Of a stretch of DNA of 64,000 nt, positions 1,198 through 26,475 are shown piece after piece. The notes beneath the pieces are model-generated. The model was not told the origin of the DNA. It saw only the letters and a program-made list of their open reading frames with translations, and did no database searches. The stretch's first letter is position 1. Every line of letters starts with the position of its first letter. Origin of the DNA: Thermoplasmatota archaeon (lineage in GTDB: Archaea > Thermoplasmatota > Thermoplasmata > UBA10834); the NCBI GenBank assembly GCA_040751795.1, contig JBFMHR010000002.1, forward strand, positions 128,001-192,000. Direction: 5' to 3'. The translations under genes and the position numbers were made by a program.

Positions 1198-1725
1198 ATG
1201 ACGCGGAAACCCGGGAGCATGTACAGGGAGATCAAGGGGCAGGCCTACTGCCGCAGGGAGTACATGGGAGGGGTTCCCGCCACGAGGATCACCCAGTTCG
1301 AGCACGGGGTCAAGGCGGACTACCCTGTCCGCATGACGCTCAGGGCCGTCGAGCAGTGCCAGATACGCCACATAGCCCTCGAGGCGGCCCGTATCTCGGC
1401 GAACAGGCTGCTGGCCAAGAAGATCGGCACCACGGGCTACCACCTCAAGATCAGGGTCTATCCCCACAACGTCCTCCGCGAGAACAAGATCGCGACGGGC
1501 GCGGGCGCTGACCGTATATCCGAGGGCATGAGGGCCGCGTTCGGCAAGCCCATCGGCACGGCCGCGAGGATCAAGCCCGACCAGGGGCTCATCACCCTCG
1601 AGACCACGGCCACGCACATCGCCACCGCGAAGCAGGCCCTGAAGAGGGCCGCCATCAAGCTCCCGACGCCGTGCTACATCGACGTCGAGAGGAGCCCGAA
1701 GAGCGTCGCGGCACCGGTCGCCTGA
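1198..1725 (+). CDS. rpl10e: 50S ribosomal protein L10e/uL16
   Basis: MTRKPGSMYR, ALEAARISANR, ENKIATGAGADRISEGMRAAFGKP; start taken at ATG 1198 after AGGTG SD. Confidence 0.97.
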   Translation: MTRKPGSMYREIKGQAYCRREYMGGVPATRITQFEHGVKADYPVRMTLRAVEQCQIRHIALEAARISANRLLAKKIGTTGYHLKIRVYPHNVLRENKIATGAGADRISEGMRAAFGKPIGTAARIKPDQGLITLETTATHIATAKQALKRAAIKLPTPCYIDVERSPKSVAAPVA

Positions 1726-12449: not shown

Positions 12450-13571
12450 TCACATGGACCGCAGCCTTGACGCGACCGCGTCCCCCACGGCCGATGTGGA
12501 CGCGCTCCCTCCGATGTCGGCCGTCATGTGCCTCCCGCCCGCGAGGACGTCCCGGACCGCGCGCTCCATGTCCCTCGCGGCCTCGGGGTGCCCGAGGGCC
12601 TTCATCATGAGCGCCGAGGACAGTATCGCGCCGACGGGGTTCGCCAGGCCCTTGCCGGCGATGTCCGGGGCGGAGCCGTGGACGGGCTCGAACATGCTCA
12701 CGCCCCCGGGGTTGATGTTCCCCGAGGGGGCGAAGCCGAGGCCGCCCTGGAGCGCCGCGCCGAGGTCCGTGAGTATGTCGCCGAAGAGATTCGGCGTCAC
12801 GAGGACGCCGAACCGCTCGGGGCTCCTGACCATGTGGAGGGCGACCGCGTCGACGTACAGGAACTCCCTGTCCATCCCGTGCCGCTTGGACGCGCGCTCG
12901 ACCGCCTCGCGCCAGAGCCCGTACACCTCCGTGAGGACGTTCGCCTTGTCGACCGACGTCACCATGCGCAGGCCCTTCTCCTTGGCCAGCCCGAAGGCGA
13001 AGTCGACCACCCGGTCGGCGCCGCCCTTGGTGACCACGCCGATCTGGAAGGCCAGCTCGTCCTCGTCCCTGAGGTCGATGCCGACGTCGAACTTGGCCTC
13101 GTAGGCCCTCCTCACGAGGTCGAGGTCCGCGCGCGACCTCCCGCGCCCGACCCTCCCGCCCAGGCCGACGTAGAAGTCCTCCGTGTTCTCCCTCACGAAG
13201 GTCATGTCGACCTTCCTGTCCCTCCCGGCCAGCGGGCCGGGCACGCCCTCGAAGAGCTGGACGGGCCTGAGGTTGACGTACTGGTCGAAGTGGAACCTGA
13301 GCCTGAGAAGCACACCCTTCTCGAGCACCCCCGGCTTCACCCTGGGGTCGCCCATGGCACCGAGCAGTAGGGCGTGCTTCTCCCCGAGCCTGGAGACGGT
13401 CTCGTCGGAGAGGACCTCTCCGGTCCTGAGGTAGTGGGCCGCCCCGAGGGGGAACTCCTCGAAGTCGATGGACGCGCCGCACCTCTCGCATGCGACGTCC
13501 AGCACCCTCCGCGCCTCCCTGACCACCTCCGGGCCGATGCCGTCGCCCGGTATGACGCCTACCTTCTGCAA
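12450..13571 (-). CDS. leuB: 3-isopropylmalate dehydrogenase
   Basis: IPGDGIGPEV, YVNLRP, RENTED, VDKANVL, NLFGDILTD, MFEPVHGSAPDIAG; probable TTG start. Confidence 0.88.
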   Translation of the reverse strand: MQKVGVIPGDGIGPEVVREARRVLDVACERCGASIDFEEFPLGAAHYLRTGEVLSDETVSRLGEKHALLLGAMGDPRVKPGVLEKGVLLRLRFHFDQYVNLRPVQLFEGVPGPLAGRDRKVDMTFVRENTEDFYVGLGGRVGRGRSRADLDLVRRAYEAKFDVGIDLRDEDELAFQIGVVTKGGADRVVDFAFGLAKEKGLRMVTSVDKANVLTEVYGLWREAVERASKRHGMDREFLYVDAVALHMVRSPERFGVLVTPNLFGDILTDLGAALQGGLGFAPSGNINPGGVSMFEPVHGSAPDIAGKGLANPVGAILSSALMMKALGHPEAARDMERAVRDVLAGGRHMTADIGGSASTSAVGDAVASRLRSM

Positions 13572-14056
13572 CCCAACATCTCCTTGGTGTAGGGGACGAG
13601 GCCCCCCTTCTCGATGAGCATCATCACGAACGGCGGGTAGCTGGCGAAGGTGGTCTCCTCGCCTGTGGACTCGTTCCTGACGACCCCCTTCCCGAGGTCG
13701 ACCGACACGACGTCGCCCCTCTTCGCCGCCAGCCTCGCCTCTACTAGCGGGAGTCCTATGTTGATCGAGTTCCTGAAGAATATCCGCGCGAAGGACTCCG
13801 CGACGACGCACGAGACGCCCGCCCCCATCAGCGCCCTCGGGGCGTGCTCCCTGCTCGACCCGCAGCCGAAGTTCCTGCCGGCCACGACGATGTCGCCGGT
13901 CCTGACCTCCGCCGGGAACTCCGGCGCGACCTTGGAGAACGCGAACTTCGCGAGCTCCCTGTTGTCCATGGTCACCAGGTGCTCGGCCGGGATTATCTGG
14001 TCGGTGTCGACGTTGTCGCCGAATGTCCATGCGCCGCCCCTGAGGGTCCCCTTCAT
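13559..14056 (-). CDS. leuD: 3-isopropylmalate dehydratase small subunit
   Basis: GDNVDTDQIIP, NFGCGSSREHA, SFARIFFRN. Confidence 0.92.
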   Translation of the reverse strand: MKGTLRGGAWTFGDNVDTDQIIPAEHLVTMDNRELAKFAFSKVAPEFPAEVRTGDIVVAGRNFGCGSSREHAPRALMGAGVSCVVAESFARIFFRNSINIGLPLVEARLAAKRGDVVSVDLGKGVVRNESTGEETTFASYPPFVMMLIEKGGLVPYTKEMLGCRR

Positions 14057-15306
14057 CCGACCACCTCCGACGGGTCGACGATCCTGCCGGCGACCGCGCT
14101 GGCTGCGACGACAGCGGGGCTGGCCAGGTACACCTCTGAGTCCTTGTGGCCCATCCTCCCGACGAAGTTCCTGTTGGTGGTGCTGACGCACCTCTCGCCA
14201 GGTGCGAGGACGCCCATGTACCCGCCGAGGCACGCGCCGCAGGTCGGGCCGGAGATGTACGCGCCCGCCTCGGAGAAGACCTTGAACAGCCCTTCGGCCG
14301 AGGCCTGGTCGAACACCTGCTTGCTGGCCGGGACGACGAGGAGCCTCACACCCTCCTTGACCTTCCTGCCCCTGAGTATCGCGGCCGCGACCCTCAGGTC
14401 CTCTATCCTCCCGTTGGTGCACGAGCCGAGGTACGCCTGGTCTATCTCCACGCCGACCTCGCTGGCCGGCGCCACGTTGCTCGGGAGGTAGGGCTTCGCG
14501 ACCACGGGGACGATGTCCTCGGCCGCGTACTCCTGCGATTCGGCGTAAGCCGCCTCCGGGTCGGCCAGGACCTTCGAGTACGGCCCCCTGACCCTCCCCT
14601 TGAGGTACTCGTCCACCTTCGCATCGGGGGGGACGATGCACGCCTTCGCCCCTGCCTCGATGCCCATGTTGGAGATCGTGACCCGGTCGGAGACGGAGAG
14701 CCCTGACACCGCGGTGCCCTGGACCTCCATCGACCTGTAGAGGGCGCCCTCGACGCCAATGTCTCCGATTATGGTGAGTATGACGTCCTTGCCCATGACG
14801 TGCCTGCCCAGCTGGCCGTCGACCGTGAACCTCATCGACTCCGGGACCTTGAACCAGAGCACGCCCCTGGCGAATACGGTCGCAGCCTCGGTGCTGCCCA
14901 TCCCCGTGGCGAAGGCGCCCAGCGCGCCGTACGAGCAGGTGTGCGAGTCGGCCCCGACTATGAGCCTCCCGGGGGCGACGAACCCCGCCTCGATCATGAC
15001 CTGGTGGCATACCCCGCCGGAGCCGACCTCGAAGTAGTTGCGTACCCCGTGCCTCTTGGCGAAGGAGCGCATCTTCTTCGCCTGGACCGCGGATGCGACG
15101 TCCTTGTTGGGGACGTAGTGGTCCGGGATGAGCACGACCTTCTTCTCTAGCATCGGCGTGCACATCCCCTCGAACTCGTCGATGGCGGCAGGCGCGGTGA
15201 TGTCGTTGACCATCACGTAGTCGACCTCGGCCTCCACTATCTCCCCGGGGGAGACGTCCCTCTGGGCCTTGGCGGACAGTATCTTCTCAGCAATCGTCCT
15301 GGGCAT
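14053..15306 (-). CDS. leuC: 3-isopropylmalate dehydratase large subunit
   Basis: TIAEKIL, GADSHTCSYGA, GSCTNGR, CGACLG, STTNRNF. Confidence 0.92.
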   Translation of the reverse strand: MPRTIAEKILSAKAQRDVSPGEIVEAEVDYVMVNDITAPAAIDEFEGMCTPMLEKKVVLIPDHYVPNKDVASAVQAKKMRSFAKRHGVRNYFEVGSGGVCHQVMIEAGFVAPGRLIVGADSHTCSYGALGAFATGMGSTEAATVFARGVLWFKVPESMRFTVDGQLGRHVMGKDVILTIIGDIGVEGALYRSMEVQGTAVSGLSVSDRVTISNMGIEAGAKACIVPPDAKVDEYLKGRVRGPYSKVLADPEAAYAESQEYAAEDIVPVVAKPYLPSNVAPASEVGVEIDQAYLGSCTNGRIEDLRVAAAILRGRKVKEGVRLLVVPASKQVFDQASAEGLFKVFSEAGAYISGPTCGACLGGYMGVLAPGERCVSTTNRNFVGRMGHKDSEVYLASPAVVAASAVAGRIVDPSEVVG

Positions 15307-15337
15307 CCCTAGACCTCCATCGATGGTCATCCCCGAT

Positions 15338-16978
15338 TCAGTAGGCCTTCCTCTTAGTCTTGTCGCCATTGCACCTGAGCTTGTGGGCCCAGAGTCTGTT
15401 CAGCCCCTCGATGGTCGCGTCCACGCTGGTCGTGACGATGTCGGAGCCGACGCTCTTCCCCAGGGCCAGCAGCTGCGCGTCCTCGCAGTCCCCCAGCTTC
15501 ACGGTGACCTCGCAGAGCGCGTTGGAGCCGCCGGTTATGGCCTCGAGCCTGAACTGCTTGAGGACGATGTTCTTCGACACCGCGGTGCGTATCGCGCTGA
15601 GGCTGGCGTCGATCGGGCCCACGCCGGTCTCCGACGCCCTCCTCACCTCGCCGTCGATGTTGAGCACCACGGTCGCGGTCGGCGTGAAGTTGAGGCCGGT
15701 GAACACGGTGAACTCCTCGAGCCTGATCACCGGCTCCATCTCCTGGCCCATGACGTCGTATGCGACCGCCAGCAGCTCCGCGTCGTCCAGCTTCTTCCCC
15801 GACTCCGCGTACTTCTTCACCCTGACGACGACCTCCTTCATCTGCTCCGGGGCGAGGTCGAGGCCGTACTCCTTGAGCTTGTTCTGTACCGCATGGACGC
15901 CCGAGTGCTTCCCGACGACGAGCGTCCTCTCCTTGCCCACTATCTCGGGGCGCATCGGCTCGTAGGTCGACGACTCGCTCAGCACGCCGTGCACATGTAT
16001 CCCCGCCTCGTGCGAGAACGCGTTCTCGCCGACTATGGCCTTGTTCGGCTGGACCGCGATGCCCGTGAGCTGCGACACCAGCCTCGACACGAAGGCCATC
16101 TTGCGGGTGTTGATCCTCGTCCTGAGGCCGTAGAACGCCTGGAGGCCCATGACGACCTCCTCCATGGCGGCGTTGCCGGCCCTCTCGCCGAGCCCGTTGA
16201 CGGTCACGTGGACCTCCTCCGCCCCCCCGAGCACCCCCGCCAGGGAGTTGGCCACGGAGAGGCCGAAGTCGTCGTGGCAGTGGACAGCGAGCGGGACCTT
16301 CGTGCCCTTCCTGACCTCGGCCACGAACTGCATCATCGCCTGTGGCGTCATGACGCCCACGGTATCCGGGATGTCGATCCTGTCGACCCCCGCGCCCTCG
16401 ACGGCCTTGTGCACGACGCCGAGGAAAGAGAGGTCGGTCCTGGTCGCGTCCTCGCAGCTGAACTCGACGACGAGGCCGTGCTGCTTGGCGTACTGGACGG
16501 CGGCCACGGCCTTCTCGACCGCCTCCTGCTGGGTGATCTTCAGCTTCTTCTCGAGGTGGACCTTGGACGTCGCGAGGAATATGTGGACCGAGTCGACGTC
16601 GCAGGCGAGGGCCGCGTCTATGTCCTGCGGGGCGGCCCTGCACAGGCTGCACACCTCGCTCTTCAGGCCGGCGCCCGCGATCCTCTTGACCGCCTCCGCC
16701 TCCCCCTCCGAGTTGACGGCGAAGCCAGCCTCGATGATGTCCGCCCCGAGCTCGTCCAGCGCCTGGGCGATCTTCAGCTTGTCGTCCACCGACAGCGCGA
16801 CGTTGGGCGTCTGCTCCCCGTCCCTCAGGGTCGTGTCGAGTATCTTGACCCTCTCAGGCATCCTGGTCGCCTGGAAGATCTGCTTGTTGTACTCGCTCAC
16901 GAACACGCCGGCATCGGGTACCCTGAACCCGGCCTCTTCGCCCGGTCTAGCACTCTCACTCGGAGCTTGTGTTGGCAT
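15338..16978 (-). CDS. leuA: 2-isopropylmalate synthase (LeuA/CimA family, with regulatory domain)
   Basis: DTTLRDGEQ, HCHDD, GLGERAGNA, HEAGIH, GPID; first gene of leuCDB operon. Confidence 0.82.
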   Translation of the reverse strand: MPTQAPSESARPGEEAGFRVPDAGVFVSEYNKQIFQATRMPERVKILDTTLRDGEQTPNVALSVDDKLKIAQALDELGADIIEAGFAVNSEGEAEAVKRIAGAGLKSEVCSLCRAAPQDIDAALACDVDSVHIFLATSKVHLEKKLKITQQEAVEKAVAAVQYAKQHGLVVEFSCEDATRTDLSFLGVVHKAVEGAGVDRIDIPDTVGVMTPQAMMQFVAEVRKGTKVPLAVHCHDDFGLSVANSLAGVLGGAEEVHVTVNGLGERAGNAAMEEVVMGLQAFYGLRTRINTRKMAFVSRLVSQLTGIAVQPNKAIVGENAFSHEAGIHVHGVLSESSTYEPMRPEIVGKERTLVVGKHSGVHAVQNKLKEYGLDLAPEQMKEVVVRVKKYAESGKKLDDAELLAVAYDVMGQEMEPVIRLEEFTVFTGLNFTPTATVVLNIDGEVRRASETGVGPIDASLSAIRTAVSKNIVLKQFRLEAITGGSNALCEVTVKLGDCEDAQLLALGKSVGSDIVTTSVDATIEGLNRLWAHKLRCNGDKTKRKAY

Positions 16979-17012
16979 CAAAACACTCTCCAAAAAACCC
17001 TCACTGCAGCAC

Positions 17013-17072
17013 TTAGGCTAGGAGAAGCAGCCCCAAGGGCAGAATAAGCGGCGCGTTGCTCTGTGGTGCCAT
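17013..17072 (-). CDS. Putative Leu-rich leader peptide MAPQSNAPLILPLGLLLLA
   Basis: ATG at 17072 six nt after GGAGG; 7 Leu codons including consecutive CTG CTT CTC CTA; TAA ends 34 nt before the leuA ATG. Confidence 0.75.
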   Translation of the reverse strand: MAPQSNAPLILPLGLLLLA

Positions 17073-17138
17073 TCCTTGCCTCCGTGTTCAGCGGGTCCAC
17101 GCCTTCTGGGCGTGACAGAGTTCCTCATGGTCTCGACC

Positions 17139-17146
17139 AATATAAA
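17139..17146 (-). promoter_or_regulatory. TATA box of leu leader/operon
   Basis: TTTATATT on minus strand in a GC-rich background, upstream of the leader ORF. Confidence 0.6.
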
Positions 17147-17273
17147 TGTTTGGAGTTCGCGGGGCCAGCCAGGCGCCCCCGCACGGTGGACATTTCTGTG
17201 CAACCGCGCGCGCTGGCCCTGCCGTCCCGGACCCTGCAAGACTAGAAATAGGCTGACCTTTGTACAGCGGTCG

Positions 17274-18101
17274 ATGGCCAAGGCCAAGCGCTCTGTGGCT
17301 TTCCAGGGCGAGAGGGGCGCGTACTCGGAGGACGCGTGCATCATGTACTTCGGCGCCAGGGTCGACGCGAGGCCCTACCCGGACTTCCACTCCGCGTTCG
17401 TGGCGGTGGAGAGGGACGAGGTGTCGCACGCCGTCGTGCCCATCGAGAACTCCATCGAGGGGAGCGTCACCCAGGTCAACGACCTCCTCCTGGACCACGA
17501 CCTCACGATCGTCGGGGAGGTGATCGTCCCCGTGAAGCACTGCCTCATGGCGCGCGAAGGGGCGACCCTGGAGTCGATCAAGGAGGTCTTCAGCCACCCC
17601 CAGGCCCTGGGCCAGTGCAGGAAGTTCCTCCAGAACCACCCTGGTTGGAGGACGATAGCCTCCTACGACACCGCCGGCAGCGCCCGGATGGTCGCGGAGT
17701 CGAAGAGGACGGACGTCGCCGCCATTGCGAGCAGGCGGGCCGCGGCCGTGTACGGGCTCAAGGTCCTCAAGGAGGACATCCAGAGCGAGGACGCGAACTT
17801 CACCCGGTTCTTCGTCCTCGAGAAGAACCCCGGGCCCGTCGAGGGCGCGAACAAGACGTCAATAGTGTTCGCGACGAAGAACGCACCCGGGGCGCTGCAC
17901 AGGTGCCTGGGCGAGTTCGCGTCGCGGGGAGTCAACCTCTCGAAGCTCGAGTCCAGGCCCAGGCGGAACAAGCCGTGGGTCTACGTCTTCTACGCGGACA
18001 TCGACGGGAGCATGGACGACCCCGACTGCCACGCCGCAGTCGGCGGGCTGCTGAAGACCGGGGCGTTCGTGAAGGTGCTCGGCTCGTACAAGAAGGCCTG
18101 A
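17274..18101 (+). CDS. pheA: Prephenate dehydratase
   Basis: FQGERGAYSE, VPIENSIEGSV, SHPQALGQC, NFTRF, PGAL, LSKLESRP. Confidence 0.95.
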   Translation: MAKAKRSVAFQGERGAYSEDACIMYFGARVDARPYPDFHSAFVAVERDEVSHAVVPIENSIEGSVTQVNDLLLDHDLTIVGEVIVPVKHCLMAREGATLESIKEVFSHPQALGQCRKFLQNHPGWRTIASYDTAGSARMVAESKRTDVAAIASRRAAAVYGLKVLKEDIQSEDANFTRFFVLEKNPGPVEGANKTSIVFATKNAPGALHRCLGEFASRGVNLSKLESRPRRNKPWVYVFYADIDGSMDDPDCHAAVGGLLKTGAFVKVLGSYKKA

Positions 18102-26282: not shown

Positions 26283-26475
26283 TTGACCTCCCCACTGGGG
26301 TGCGCCTGCTATGTGTAGAGAAAATATAAGCCCTTCGGACTTCTGGACGCGACGCGGCCGGCCTCTGGCCGAGCGCTGGCCCGGGTCTGTTGCACATATG
26401 TGTCCATGCGGTGCTGAGCCCGCGCCTCAATGGGTTTAATACCCACGGTGTCTGATGCCCTGCCAGGGACCACAG

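What the first reader, a model, noticed from the sequence alone, without database searches (positions are those of the whole stretch)
16986..17146. Candidate leucine attenuator (Leu-rich leader peptide) controlling an archaeal leuA-C-D-B operon
Seen on the minus strand: TATA (17146-17139); a 5' hairpin CACGCC/GGCGTG; SD GGAGG; then ATG GCA CCA CAG AGC AAC GCG CCG CTT ATT CTG CCC TTG GGG CTG CTT CTC CTA GCC TAA = MAPQSNAPLILPLGLLLLA. Seven of the last 11 residues are Leu, including four in a row that use each CUN codon once; CTT and CTA look uncommon in the surrounding GC-rich genes. The Leu-codon region can pair with downstream RNA. GCCCUUG (17040-17034) pairs with UGAGGGU (17003-16997) and CUGC with GCAG, directly before a U6 run (16997-16992). 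Alternatively UUCUCC pairs with the leuA SD GGAGAG (16991-16986). Known: enterobacterial leuL has four tandem Leu codons, actinobacterial leuA uses a Leu-leader/SD-sequestering element, and archaea couple transcription and translation. To my knowledge leader-peptide attenuation is not experimentally established in archaea. Inference: a ribosome stalled on Leu codons blocks the terminator or anti-SD and switches the operon on.
Basis: partly seen in the sequence, partly recalled or inferred. Interest (0 to 1): 0.92.

Follow-up and report, generated by a model that had tools for sequence, protein, structure and literature searches.

The report
Archaeal leucine leader-peptide attenuator candidate
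A tiny leucine-rich reading frame sits just ahead of the leucine-synthesis genes of this uncultured archaeon and of many relatives, and it looks like the ribosome-based amino-acid sensors long known in bacteria but, as far as I could find, not yet described in archaea.

Summary
On the minus strand lie a TATA box (17146-17139), a 5' hairpin, GGAGG, a 19-codon ORF (17072-17013, MAPQSNAPLILPLGLLLLA), a T6 run (16997-16992) and the leuA ribosome site, followed by leuA-leuC-leuD-leuB.

It is not chance. Of 1516 comparable short ORFs in this genome, it is the only one with 5 or more Leu in 7 residues. A Leu-rich short ORF precedes long-form leuA in 72 of 77 related loci from 8 families of Thermoplasmatota; controls gave 3 of 77 and about 12 of 77. 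Indels keep the reading frame. Four of its 7 Leu codons are of types that make up 6.5% of genomic Leu codons.

A second conserved leader, rich in Leu, Val and Ile, precedes ilvB.

Folding instead places the ORF inside a long hairpin that ends at the U run.

Best reading: a leucine-sensing leader peptide. The read-out is unproven; U-run termination is favoured over masking of the ribosome site. Nine literature searches found no archaeal precedent.

The parts
17139..17146 (-). TATA box (TTTATATT) of the leu operon promoter. The predicted transcript start is near 17116, using a recalled rule of about 26 nt from the TATA centre.
   Evidence: The TTTATA core is present in 30 of 35 family-f1 upstream regions (three have TTTATAC or TTTTATA, and two rows begin inside it). 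The start site itself was not measured.
17098..17114 (-). 5' hairpin at the start of the leader RNA (CACGCC / GGCGTG).
   Evidence: RNAalifold keeps it, with changes on both sides in 4 of its 5 pairs.
17079..17083 (-). Shine-Dalgarno-like GGAGG, 6 nt before the leader ATG.
   Evidence: Conserved in most f1 rows as GGAGG or GGAGA.
17013..17072 (-). Leader ORF of 19 codons plus TAA: MAPQSNAPLILPLGLLLLA.
   Evidence: The region length is 60, 63 or 66 nt in 33 of 34 f1 sequences, while the flanks vary by single bases.
17019..17048 (-). Leu-codon block: codons 9-18, 7 Leu and 1 Ile; the last four are CTG CTT CTC CTA.
   Evidence: Nucleotide identity is 0.91-0.97 in codons 9-19 against 0.65-0.74 in codons 2-8.
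17084..17097 (-). 5' strand of the predicted closing helix (P1) of the hairpin that encloses the leader ORF.
   Evidence: MFE: 17097-17093 pairs with 17000-16996, 17092-17089 with 17006-17003, and 17086-17084 with 17012-17010. MFE folds give 5 or more such pairs in 26 of 34 f1 and 27 of 28 f6 sequences. This was not significant for single sequences.
16996..17012 (-). 3' strand of P1, between the leader stop and the U run.
   Evidence: In family f6 the equivalent 7-bp helix has 6 or more pairs in 27 of 27 sequences, with compensatory changes at 2 positions.
16992..16997 (-). U6 run directly after the hairpin and directly before the leuA ribosome site; candidate termination or pause signal.
   Evidence: T runs of 4 or more lie between the leader stop and leuA in 61 of 72 unique leaders, and of 5 or more in 34 of 72. 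T5+ runs are rare in this genome and are enriched just after stop codons.
16959..16994 (-). Hairpin over the leuA start region (UUUGGAG / CUCCGAG plus an inner stem). It holds the SD GGAGAG 16991-16986, with the ATG at 16978 in its loop.
   Evidence: GGAG/CUCC is kept in the f1 consensus fold. An analogous helix of different sequence (ACGGUUUG / CAAACC.GU) is the consensus fold in f6.
15338..16978 (-). leuA, 2-isopropylmalate synthase, long form with C-terminal domain.
   Evidence: NF002085, 645.2 bits, cut-off 517.
12450..15369 (-). leuC (14053-15369), leuD (13559-14056) and leuB-like (12450 to about 13562).

Best explanation
The 19-codon ORF is a leucine-sensing leader peptide of the leuACDB operon. 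Its product probably has no function of its own; what matters is how long a ribosome takes to cross the Leu codons.

Shown directly or by comparison:
- The ORF has its own ribosome site.
- Its reading frame and its C-terminal Leu run are conserved across at least 8 families, while its N-terminal residues drift.
- Leu identity is kept even where the codons change (CUN in one lineage, UUR in another).
- The sister operon ilvB carries a leader rich in Leu, Val and Ile instead.

Inferred:
- The leader RNA folds into one long imperfect hairpin (about 17097-16996) with the ORF inside it.
- In that fold the leader's own ribosome site pairs with its last Leu codons, so mainly a ribosome that loads during transcription can translate it.
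- The 3' foot of the hairpin abuts a U6 run and then the leuA ribosome site.

Proposed logic, an occupancy timer:
- The hairpin cannot close while a ribosome sits anywhere in the ORF.
- With ample Leu-tRNA the ribosome clears the ORF quickly, the hairpin closes behind RNA polymerase pausing on the U run, and transcription ends.
- With scarce Leu-tRNA the ribosome lingers on the seven Leu codons, four of them rare. The hairpin stays open and polymerase runs on into leuA.

My odds are about 0.8 that it is a Leu-sensing leader peptide of some kind, and about 0.5 that termination at the U run is the regulated step.
For: Uniqueness in the genome: 1 of 1516 candidate short ORFs.

Conservation: 72 of 77 long-form leuA loci pass the rule. 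By family: f1 34/34, f2 3/3, f6 27/30, f25 3/3, f26 2/4, f30 1/1, f33 1/1, f41 1/1. Controls gave 3 of 77 (reverse complement) and a mean of 12 of 77 (shuffles). The f41 locus lies in another class of the phylum. Short-form leuA-like genes of f8 and f19 also carry Leu-rich leaders.

Coding signature: 4 of 5 gap blocks inside the ORF are 3 nt long, against 1 of 10 upstream and 2 of 7 downstream.

Leu codon types differ between families (f1 mainly CTG/CTT/CTA/TTG; f6 CTT; f33 and f30 TTG) while Leu is kept.

Rare-codon bias in the window's leader.

Pathway-matched second leader: 25 of 26 f1/f2 ilvB loci have a short ORF with 6 or more of 8 residues Leu/Ile/Val (controls 1 of 26 and 0.4 of 26). 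Val makes up 13.4% of ilvB leaders but 1.1% of leuA leaders.

Hairpin and U run: MFE structure with coordinates; closing helix in f6; T-run statistics.

Literature: passages of a 2026 review (PMC13675443) state that archaeal RNA polymerase terminates at oligo-T and that a hairpin can enhance this.

RNA libraries: metatranscriptome contigs of relatives bridge the leader and the leuA 5' end, for example 16954-17103. This is weak, because contigs do not prove transcription.
Against: There are no expression, start-site or 3'-end data for this organism.

The long-range helices in f1 rest on single-sequence folds. In 0 of 34 f1 sequences did the upstream/post-stop pairing beat 95 of 100 shuffles. 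The leader's MFE z-score is only -1.73. The f1 consensus fold keeps only local helices.

Only 19 nt separate the stop codon from the U run, so there is no room for a classical antiterminator. The timer model needs a long polymerase pause and fast ribosome release, neither of which is shown.

The U run is short or missing in some families. It is T3 in 6 of 28 f6 leaders, and none of T3 or longer was found in f26 (though mis-set the f26 gene start and scanned only the first 24 nt after the stop) or in 3 of 34 f1 leaders.

The ilvB leader has a hairpin but no U run.

Only 31 of 1517 predicted genes have a T5+ run within 80 nt after their stop, so oligo-T is not this organism's general terminator.

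A conserved Lrp-type operator-like motif lies upstream of the promoter, so leucine control could be exerted there as well.
Confidence: 0.6

Rival explanations
1. The sensor is the same, but the read-out is translational. The leader structure masks the leuA ribosome site, or competes with the structure that masks it, and a ribosome stalled on the Leu codons frees that site. This is how the actinobacterial LEU element and erm-type leaders are thought to work.

In family f6 the closing helix P1 and the leuA start-region hairpin share the bases ACGGU, so they exclude each other. The 5' arm of P1 also lies within reach of a ribosome initiating on the leader.
For: A hairpin over the leuA SD and start is predicted in both f1 and f6 with different sequences, and shows one compensatory change in f6.

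The P1/P4 overlap is visible.

Some families lack a U run, and the ilvB leader has none, while its CUU CUU codons can pair with the ilvB SD in the fold.

In the window UUCUCC can pair with GGAGAG.
Against: Equilibrium folding with the ribosome footprint masked gives the same unpaired probability for the leuA start region in every state. Means were 0.35 free, 0.36 stalled and 0.38 at the stop over 72 leaders. With a ribosome initiating on the leader versus one stalled, f1 gave 0.40 versus 0.43 and f6 gave 0.39 versus 0.37.

The Leu-codon/SD pairing shows no covariation, and its middle pairs are broken in 13 and 20 of 34 f1 sequences.
Confidence: 0.22
2. The conserved leader is a structured RNA bound by a protein or a small ligand, and the Leu-rich ORF is a by-product of pyrimidine-rich strands pairing with purine-rich ribosome-site-like strands. 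The authors of the actinobacterial LEU element paper favoured a protein-binding reading of that element.
For: Codons 9-19 are conserved at all three codon positions (0.91-0.97), which shows constraint at the RNA level.

Passages of PMC1262725 report that mutations in the Leu codons did not affect regulation in that bacterial case.
Against: Leu is kept while the codon types change between families, including G-rich UUG/CUG runs in f33 and UUA in f6.

The start codon, ribosome site, frame and in-frame stop are kept.

The ilvB leader shifts to Leu, Val and Ile.

No Rfam family matched at E up to 10.
Confidence: 0.07
3. The ORF encodes a small hydrophobic peptide with a function of its own, for example membrane-associated, that merely shares a transcript with leuA. 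Alternatively the ORF has no role and the operon is controlled only by the upstream Lrp-type operator.
For: The peptide is hydrophobic.

A conserved motif, TGYACA-N4-TGTCC, lies at 17187-17202. It recurs before thrB/thrC, hisG and an Lrp/AsnC-family gene.
Against: In f6 the peptides are only 12-14 residues long, too short to span a membrane.

The N-terminal halves and the last residues vary freely.

The ORF is tied to leuA at a nearly fixed distance, 32-37 nt in f1.

No Pfam or NCBIfam family matched the two leaders long enough to scan.
Confidence: 0.06

Closest known systems
Ribosome-mediated attenuators of enterobacterial amino-acid operons (leu, trp, his, ilv leaders)
   Same: A short ORF in the 5' leader of a biosynthetic operon. 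It has a run of codons for the pathway's own amino acid, uses rare codons, and is followed by a hairpin and a U run before the first enzyme gene. The composition is pathway-matched: Leu only before leuA, and Leu/Val/Ile before ilvB.
   Different: The organism is an archaeon with a TATA-box promoter.

The ORF lies inside the candidate terminator hairpin instead of upstream of a separate 2:3/3:4 switch, and only 19 nt separate the stop from the U run.

There is no match to the Rfam leader families or to curated leader-peptide protein families.

No response to leucine has been shown.
Actinobacterial LEU element upstream of leuA (PMC1262725; passages read)
   Same: A leader ORF with a Leu run upstream of leuA, set within a compact structure that has a stem at its base next to the leuA ribosome site.
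   Different: The defining base stem, between the Leu codons and the leuA SD, is not conserved here. No pseudoknot was identified. The host domain and the sequence are different.
pyrBI-type attenuators of enteric bacteria
   Same: The leader ORF overlaps the terminator hairpin, so the ribosome blocks the terminator directly, without an antiterminator.
   Different: There the signal is polymerase speed, set by UTP. Here the signal would be ribosome speed on the Leu codons.
Leaderless polycysteine short ORFs of mycobacteria (bioRxiv 10.1101/834739; only the search listing and the start of the abstract were seen)
   Same: Cognate-codon-rich short ORFs acting as the first cistron and as an amino-acid-responsive attenuator. 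The ilvB leader here starts about 27 nt after a TATA-like box, with no SD, so it is probably leaderless.
   Different: That system is bacterial and senses cysteine. The window's leuA leader has a 5' UTR and an SD.

Membership tests
Leader-peptide transcription attenuators (enterobacterial leu/trp/his type) | Short ORF in the 5' leader of the biosynthetic operon, on the same strand, ending shortly before the first gene. | tested here: met
   ORF 17072-17013, 34 nt before the leuA ATG. Present in 72 of 77 related loci.
Leader-peptide transcription attenuators (enterobacterial leu/trp/his type) | Enrichment of codons for the pathway's end product. | tested here: met
   7 Leu in 19 codons. It is the only one of 1516 candidate ORFs with 5 or more Leu in 7 residues. 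The ilvB leader carries Leu, Val and Ile instead.
Leader-peptide transcription attenuators (enterobacterial leu/trp/his type) | The leader ORF is translated. | tested here: inconclusive
   The SD, the start codon and frame-preserving indels support coding. No ribosome profiling or proteomic data were available.
Leader-peptide transcription attenuators (enterobacterial leu/trp/his type) | Terminator hairpin followed by a U run before the first structural gene. | tested here: inconclusive
   The U6 run is present and a hairpin is predicted, but covariation is weak. The local helix has 3 pairs with compensatory changes, reached by 5 of 500 shuffles. The long-range helix was not significant per sequence. 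A simple terminator scan did not flag the site.
Leader-peptide transcription attenuators (enterobacterial leu/trp/his type) | A mutually exclusive antiterminator between the leader stop and the terminator. | tested here: not met
   Only 19 nt lie between the stop and the U run in the window. A four-region layout is suggested only in family f25, and its terminator is not canonical.
Leader-peptide transcription attenuators (enterobacterial leu/trp/his type) | Read-through rises when the amino acid is scarce. | not testable with these tools
   Only metatranscriptome contigs of relatives were available.
Actinobacterial LEU element | Base stem formed by the Leu-codon run and the leuA Shine-Dalgarno box. 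| tested here: not met
   82.8% of cells paired, no compensatory change, and the middle pairs broken in 13 and 20 of 34 sequences.
Rfam leader and leuA-associated RNA families (Leu leader, Leu/Phe leader, and the haloarchaeal leuA motif, whose name is recalled) | Match to the covariance model. | tested here: not met
   cmscan of 16500-17700 at E up to 10 gave six unrelated weak matches and none to a leader family for Leu.
Curated leader-peptide protein families (NCBIfam, Pfam) | Match to a family profile. | tested here: not met
   The 28-aa ilvB leader and the 29-aa leuA leader of L100 gave 0 families at E up to 10. The window's 19-aa peptide is below the tool's 20-residue minimum and was not scanned.

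The most novel reading that the evidence does not exclude
Archaea use true ribosome-mediated transcription attenuation. In Thermoplasmatota a family of leader peptides (Leu before leuA, Leu/Val/Ile before ilvB) gates termination by the archaeal RNA polymerase at a short U run.

The architecture is not known from bacteria. The sensor ORF sits inside the terminator hairpin, so ribosome dwell time itself, rather than an antiterminator, sets read-through.

This would be direct regulatory use of transcription-translation coupling in archaea. It occurs in cultivable methanogen relatives as well as in uncultured lineages.
Probability: 0.4. Interest if true: 0.92.

Novelty: new variant of a known kind. 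Interest (0 to 1): 0.86.

Why it matters
Leader-peptide attenuation is a textbook bacterial mechanism that depends on coupled transcription and translation. Archaea couple the two processes but use a eukaryote-like polymerase and different termination signals. Whether they exploit coupling for regulation is an open question.

Nine full-text searches found no report of an archaeal amino-acid leader peptide. A 2026 review of termination across domains does not contain the word stem 'attenuat'.

This element is conserved across at least ten families of one phylum, including mcrA-bearing lineages with complete genomes. It has a pathway-matched sibling at ilvB. That makes the question directly testable with start-site and 3'-end mapping, ribosome profiling and reporters.

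It also flags short ORFs that current archaeal annotation omits.

Tried and rejected
I counted both on the 34-sequence f1 alignment. Neither has a compensatory change, and shuffles do as well. I reject them as conserved structures. The anti-SD pairing remains possible in the window's own sequence.

Consensus folding. RNAalifold on f1 and f6 returns only local helices. The long-range helices could not be confirmed this way because the arms shift register between genera.

Per-sequence shuffle test of the closing helix. Mean pairs were 7.3 against 5.1 shuffled in f1, and 8.7 against 3.4 in f6. Only 0 of 34 (f1) and 2 of 28 (f6) sequences beat 95 of 100 shuffles. A permutation of partner arms in f6 gave 462 of 5000, which is not significant.

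Equilibrium ribosome-masking models showed no consistent change in leuA start-site accessibility. In one search the script took a TTG upstream of the true ATG as the start in several f1 rows; one search used the ATG.

Simple terminator and promoter scan. The site was not flagged, because the loop is too long for the rule.

Rfam and NCBIfam/Pfam on the leaders: nothing.

Other amino-acid leaders in G000.
- The SD-requiring scan found none that was convincing for Trp, His, Phe, Thr, Ile or Val. It also missed the SD-less ilvB leader, so it is not exhaustive.
- A T5 run followed by GGGAGGTG at C50:15923 precedes an ORF that I did not scan against any family library; by recalled resemblance it looks like an iron-type alcohol or glycerol dehydrogenase. 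It has no cognate-rich ORF, and I dropped it.

AmoA search to place the class. It rang nowhere, not even in the controls, so it is uninformative. Taxon placement rests on record titles and on mcrA.

RNA runs.
- Three metatranscriptome runs held 5-8% of the sampled words.
- Laid contigs cover the leader and the leuA start.
- One contig also covers the promoter region, so DNA carry-over or pervasive transcription cannot be excluded.
- Two contigs end at 16995, inside the U run, but a one-base length difference of that run between strains (place 16992) explains an assembly break.
- I make no claim about habitat, expression level or 3' ends.

f25 'classical' four-region layout. Alternative pairings exist, but the terminator-like hairpin is only 4 bp, is lost in one of the three sequences, and sits 5 nt from the U run. 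I treat it as suggestive only.

Rows dropped before counts.
- One search left out L029 and L030 (short-form paralogs), L081 (gene truncated at its 5' end), L006 (contig ends 83 nt upstream) and any locus with under 160 nt of upstream sequence.
- Loci L082-L099 (named MAG records, largely the same genomes as the G handles) and L101-L129 (re-fetches) were not counted.
- In f26, two of the four loci pass the rule only through an upstream-extended ORF variant. The conserved f26 leader has just two Leu plus an Ile/Val run.
- Relatives are not independent, so count families, not rows.

Supplementary files of papers were not opened.
Full report
WHAT IS THERE

Reading the minus strand gives, in order:
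- TTTATATT at 17146-17139.
- A 6-bp hairpin, CACGCC 17114-17109 with GGCGTG 17103-17098.
- GGAGG at 17083-17079.
- ATG at 17072.
- A 19-codon ORF, MAPQSNAPLILPLGLLLLA, with stop TAA at 17015-17013.
- T6 at 16997-16992.
- GGAGAG at 16991-16986.
- The leuA ATG at 16978.

The genes that follow are leuA (NF002085, 645 bits), leuC, leuD and a leuB-like gene. A prephenate dehydratase gene (NF008865, 262.9 bits, cut-off 219) diverges from about 17274 on the plus strand.

WHO CARRIES IT

The window is contig C12 of a 2.05 Mb, 64.7% G+C assembly. Close relatives are public records titled uncultured Thermoplasmata or Thermoplasmatota MAGs. The genome has no mcrA. Genomes of three other families of the same class do have it, in 4 of the 5 genomes tested. 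An AmoA search rang nowhere and says nothing.

IS IT CHANCE?

- Genome-wide, I listed 1516 ATG/GTG ORFs of 8-40 codons that have an SD-like motif and a 200-aa or longer ORF starting within 95 nt. Only this one has 5 or more Leu in a 7-residue window.
- Genomic Leu codons are 93% CTC plus CTG. The leader uses CTT twice, CTA once and TTG once among its 7 Leu codons.
- T runs of 6 or more occur 35 times in the genome. T5+ runs are almost absent from coding sequence (2 in the 200 nt before 1517 stop codons). They are enriched in the 80 nt after stops (31 genes) and in TATA-like TTTTTA boxes.

CONSERVATION

I searched leuA in 41 relatives, in 301 genomes of the class and in 301 genomes of the phylum, and fetched the upstream DNA.

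One fixed rule was applied: an ATG/GTG ORF of 8-40 codons with 3 or more Leu in 6 residues, inside the 200 nt before the gene. It is met by 72 of 77 long-form leuA loci: f1 34/34, f2 3/3, f6 27/30, f25 3/3, f26 2/4, f30 1/1, f33 1/1 and f41 1/1. The reverse-complement control gives 3 of 77, and 20 shuffles give a mean of 12.

Example peptides:
- f1: ...LLILPLGLLILA
- f2: ...LDLLLLLLG
- f25: MEPRFRKPLLLTLRLLPLA
- f33: MNAQRLGLLLLLRLVPAPLL
- f6: MIFAQHVGLLLIE and MICNAFIGLLLLLE
- f41, another class: MKNVELATRIGCESLLVLGLVVLVSLISH, followed by a T5 run and GGAGGTG

The misses are two f6 loci with no leader, one f6 locus with GLFFL, and f26, whose conserved leader has two Leu plus an Ile/Val run. 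Short-form leuA-like genes of f8 (...ALLLLS...MLLLA...ALLLSA) and f19 (MLTLVLHEVLLLNESTLSPVVL, followed by a T5 run and GGGTGA) also carry such ORFs. Three other short-form loci do not.

EVIDENCE THAT THE FRAME IS READ

In the 34-sequence f1 alignment, the ORF region is 60, 63 or 66 nt long in 33 of 34 rows, and 4 of its 5 gap blocks are 3 nt. The flanks vary in single-base steps: 1 of 10 gap blocks upstream and 2 of 7 downstream are multiples of three.

Codons 2-8 drift (identity 0.65-0.74), whereas codons 9-19 are conserved at all three positions (0.91-0.97). So the Leu block is under both coding and RNA-level constraint. Across families, Leu persists while the codon type changes.

A SECOND, PATHWAY-MATCHED LEADER

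A second leader lies upstream of ilvB (TIGR00118, 738 bits; contig C1). About 27 nt after a TATA-like box, and with no SD, sits MDAAAGHAATLLLVVTLGVPVDLRIEGL.

Of 26 f1/f2 ilvB loci, 25 have a short ORF with 6 or more of 8 residues Leu/Ile/Val. The controls were 1 of 26 (reverse complement) and 0.4 of 26 (shuffles).

Unique leuA leaders of f1 and f2 are 38.4% Leu and 1.1% Val. Unique ilvB leaders are 21.7% Leu and 13.4% Val. Leucine only before the leucine-specific enzyme, and all three branched-chain residues before the shared enzyme, is the pattern expected of amino-acid sensors. It is hard to explain by RNA structure or by a generic hydrophobic peptide.

RNA STRUCTURE

The minimum-energy fold of the window's leader puts the whole ORF inside one long imperfect hairpin.
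- A closing helix: 17097-17093 with 17000-16996, 17092-17089 with 17006-17003, and 17086-17084 with 17012-17010.
- Then the leader's own SD/ATG region pairs with its last codons: 17081-17078 with 17018-17015, 17076-17073 with 17023-17020, and 17070-17067 with 17029-17026.
- The hairpin ends at the U run.
- A separate hairpin, 16994-16959, holds the leuA SD and start.

Similar closing helices appear in most MFE folds (26 of 34 f1 sequences, 27 of 28 f6). Per-sequence shuffles are not significant, and the f1 consensus fold keeps only local helices.

In f6 the closing helix is clear. It is 7 bp, with 6 or more pairs in 27 of 27 sequences and two positions with compensatory changes. It shares ACGGU with the leuA start hairpin, which is the consensus fold there.

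A local alternative in f1, the last Leu/Ile codons pairing with the bases just before the U run, has 3 pairs with compensatory changes, a level reached by 5 of 500 shuffles.

MECHANISM

Two read-outs fit the anatomy.

Termination. An ORF-enclosing hairpin followed by a U run would act as a hairpin-enhanced oligo-U terminator. Archaeal polymerase is reported to respond to such signals (passages of PMC13675443). Any ribosome inside the ORF keeps the hairpin open, so ribosome dwell time on the Leu codons would set read-through. This explains several features:
- the U run, which is exceptional in a 65% G+C genome;
- the rare Leu codons;
- the short ORF;
- the pairing of the leader's ribosome site with its own Leu codons, which would restrict translation to a ribosome that loads during transcription.

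Translational control. A stalled ribosome would change the fold so that the leuA ribosome site opens. This fits f6 (the P1/P4 overlap), f26 and the ilvB leader, which lack a U run. However, equilibrium models with masked ribosome footprints show no consistent change in accessibility.

I therefore favour termination in the window's family, at about even odds overall. Both versions share the same sensor.

OTHER REGULATION NEARBY

A motif TGYACA-N4-TGTCC at 17187-17202 is conserved in f1. It occurs 5 times in the genome, all outside real genes:
- between leuA and pheA;
- between thrC and thrB (window 26391-26405);
- upstream of hisG;
- 34 nt upstream of an Lrp/AsnC-family gene;
- in one gene-poor stretch.

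It is probably an operator of an amino-acid regulon, so the leu operon may be under dual control.

EXPRESSION DATA

Only contigs from three metatranscriptome runs of relatives were available. Some bridge the leader and the leuA 5' end. They cannot show starts, ends or strand.

PRIOR KNOWLEDGE

Nine full-text searches returned bacterial attenuators, but no archaeal leader-peptide attenuator.
- The Haloferax ribosome-profiling paper mentions upstream small ORFs without assigning such a role (passages).
- The actinobacterial LEU element paper is the nearest described leuA leader, and is a warning that Leu codons in a leader need not be the sensor (passages).
- Supplements were not seen. Subscription journals are not in the library.

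VERDICT

This is a real, conserved, lineage-wide feature. It is best read as a leucine-sensing leader peptide with a hairpin-plus-U-run read-out. It is a new variant of a known bacterial mechanism in a domain where that mechanism has not been described, and its mechanism is still unproven.

Noticed in passing
G000 contig C1, locus L141 1349-1435 (+); relatives L145-L168 and L171: A second conserved leader ORF lies upstream of ilvB. It is rich in Leu, Val and Ile; the window genome's copy is MDAAAGHAATLLLVVTLGVPVDLRIEGL. It is probably leaderless, starting about 27 nt after a TATA-like box with no SD. Its stop codon lies in the 5' arm of a long covarying hairpin, and no U run follows. Present in 25 of 26 f1/f2 loci under the 6-of-8 Leu/Ile/Val rule.
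   Followed up: partly
window 17187-17202; window 26391-26405; G000 C23:248882-248896; C34:6663-6677; C1:419893-419907: The motif TGYACA-N4-TGTCC occurs 5 times in the genome, all outside real genes. The sites are between leuA and pheA, between thrC and thrB, 221 nt upstream of hisG, 34 nt upstream of an Lrp/AsnC-family (LysM-like) regulator gene, and in one gene-poor stretch. It is likely the operator of an amino-acid regulon. Its first hexamer is the one I recall as the TrpY 'TRP box' (recalled, not checked).
   Followed up: partly
G000 C45, locus L144 about 1392-1442 (+); relatives L174, L176, L178, L180-L182, L186: A short ORF with a single Trp codon in a conserved R-R-(G)-D-x-[FL]-W context overlaps or just precedes the trpE start; the window genome's copy is MTRRDPFWPRRRRHVA. 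The promoter is flanked by TGTACA-like hexamers. It was seen in 8 of the 14 loci that matched the trpE query. Three f1 loci of other genera, L173, L175 and the f8 locus L184 did not show it by the rule.
   Followed up: partly
L130 (G074), L131 (G083), L029 (G033): upstream of short-form leuA-like genes of family f8: The Leu-run leaders (...ALLLLS...ALLLSA...MLLLA) are followed 3-4 nt after the stop by a hairpin whose arms covary between genomes (GAACAUG/CAUGUUC in one, GAACAGU/ACUGUUC in another), and then by a U-rich stretch and GGTGA.
   Followed up: no
L042-L044 (family f25), between the leader stop and leuA: The spacer is longer, 61-64 nt. Leu codons, a GGGAGG box right after the stop, a CCCUCCUC box and a GC hairpin before GCAUUUU can pair in alternative ways, reminiscent of a four-region attenuator.
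   Followed up: partly
window 16940-16978 and the f6 loci: The first 8-10 codons of leuA are unusually conserved at the nucleotide level within families. They form the 3' strand of the hairpin over the leuA start.
   Followed up: partly
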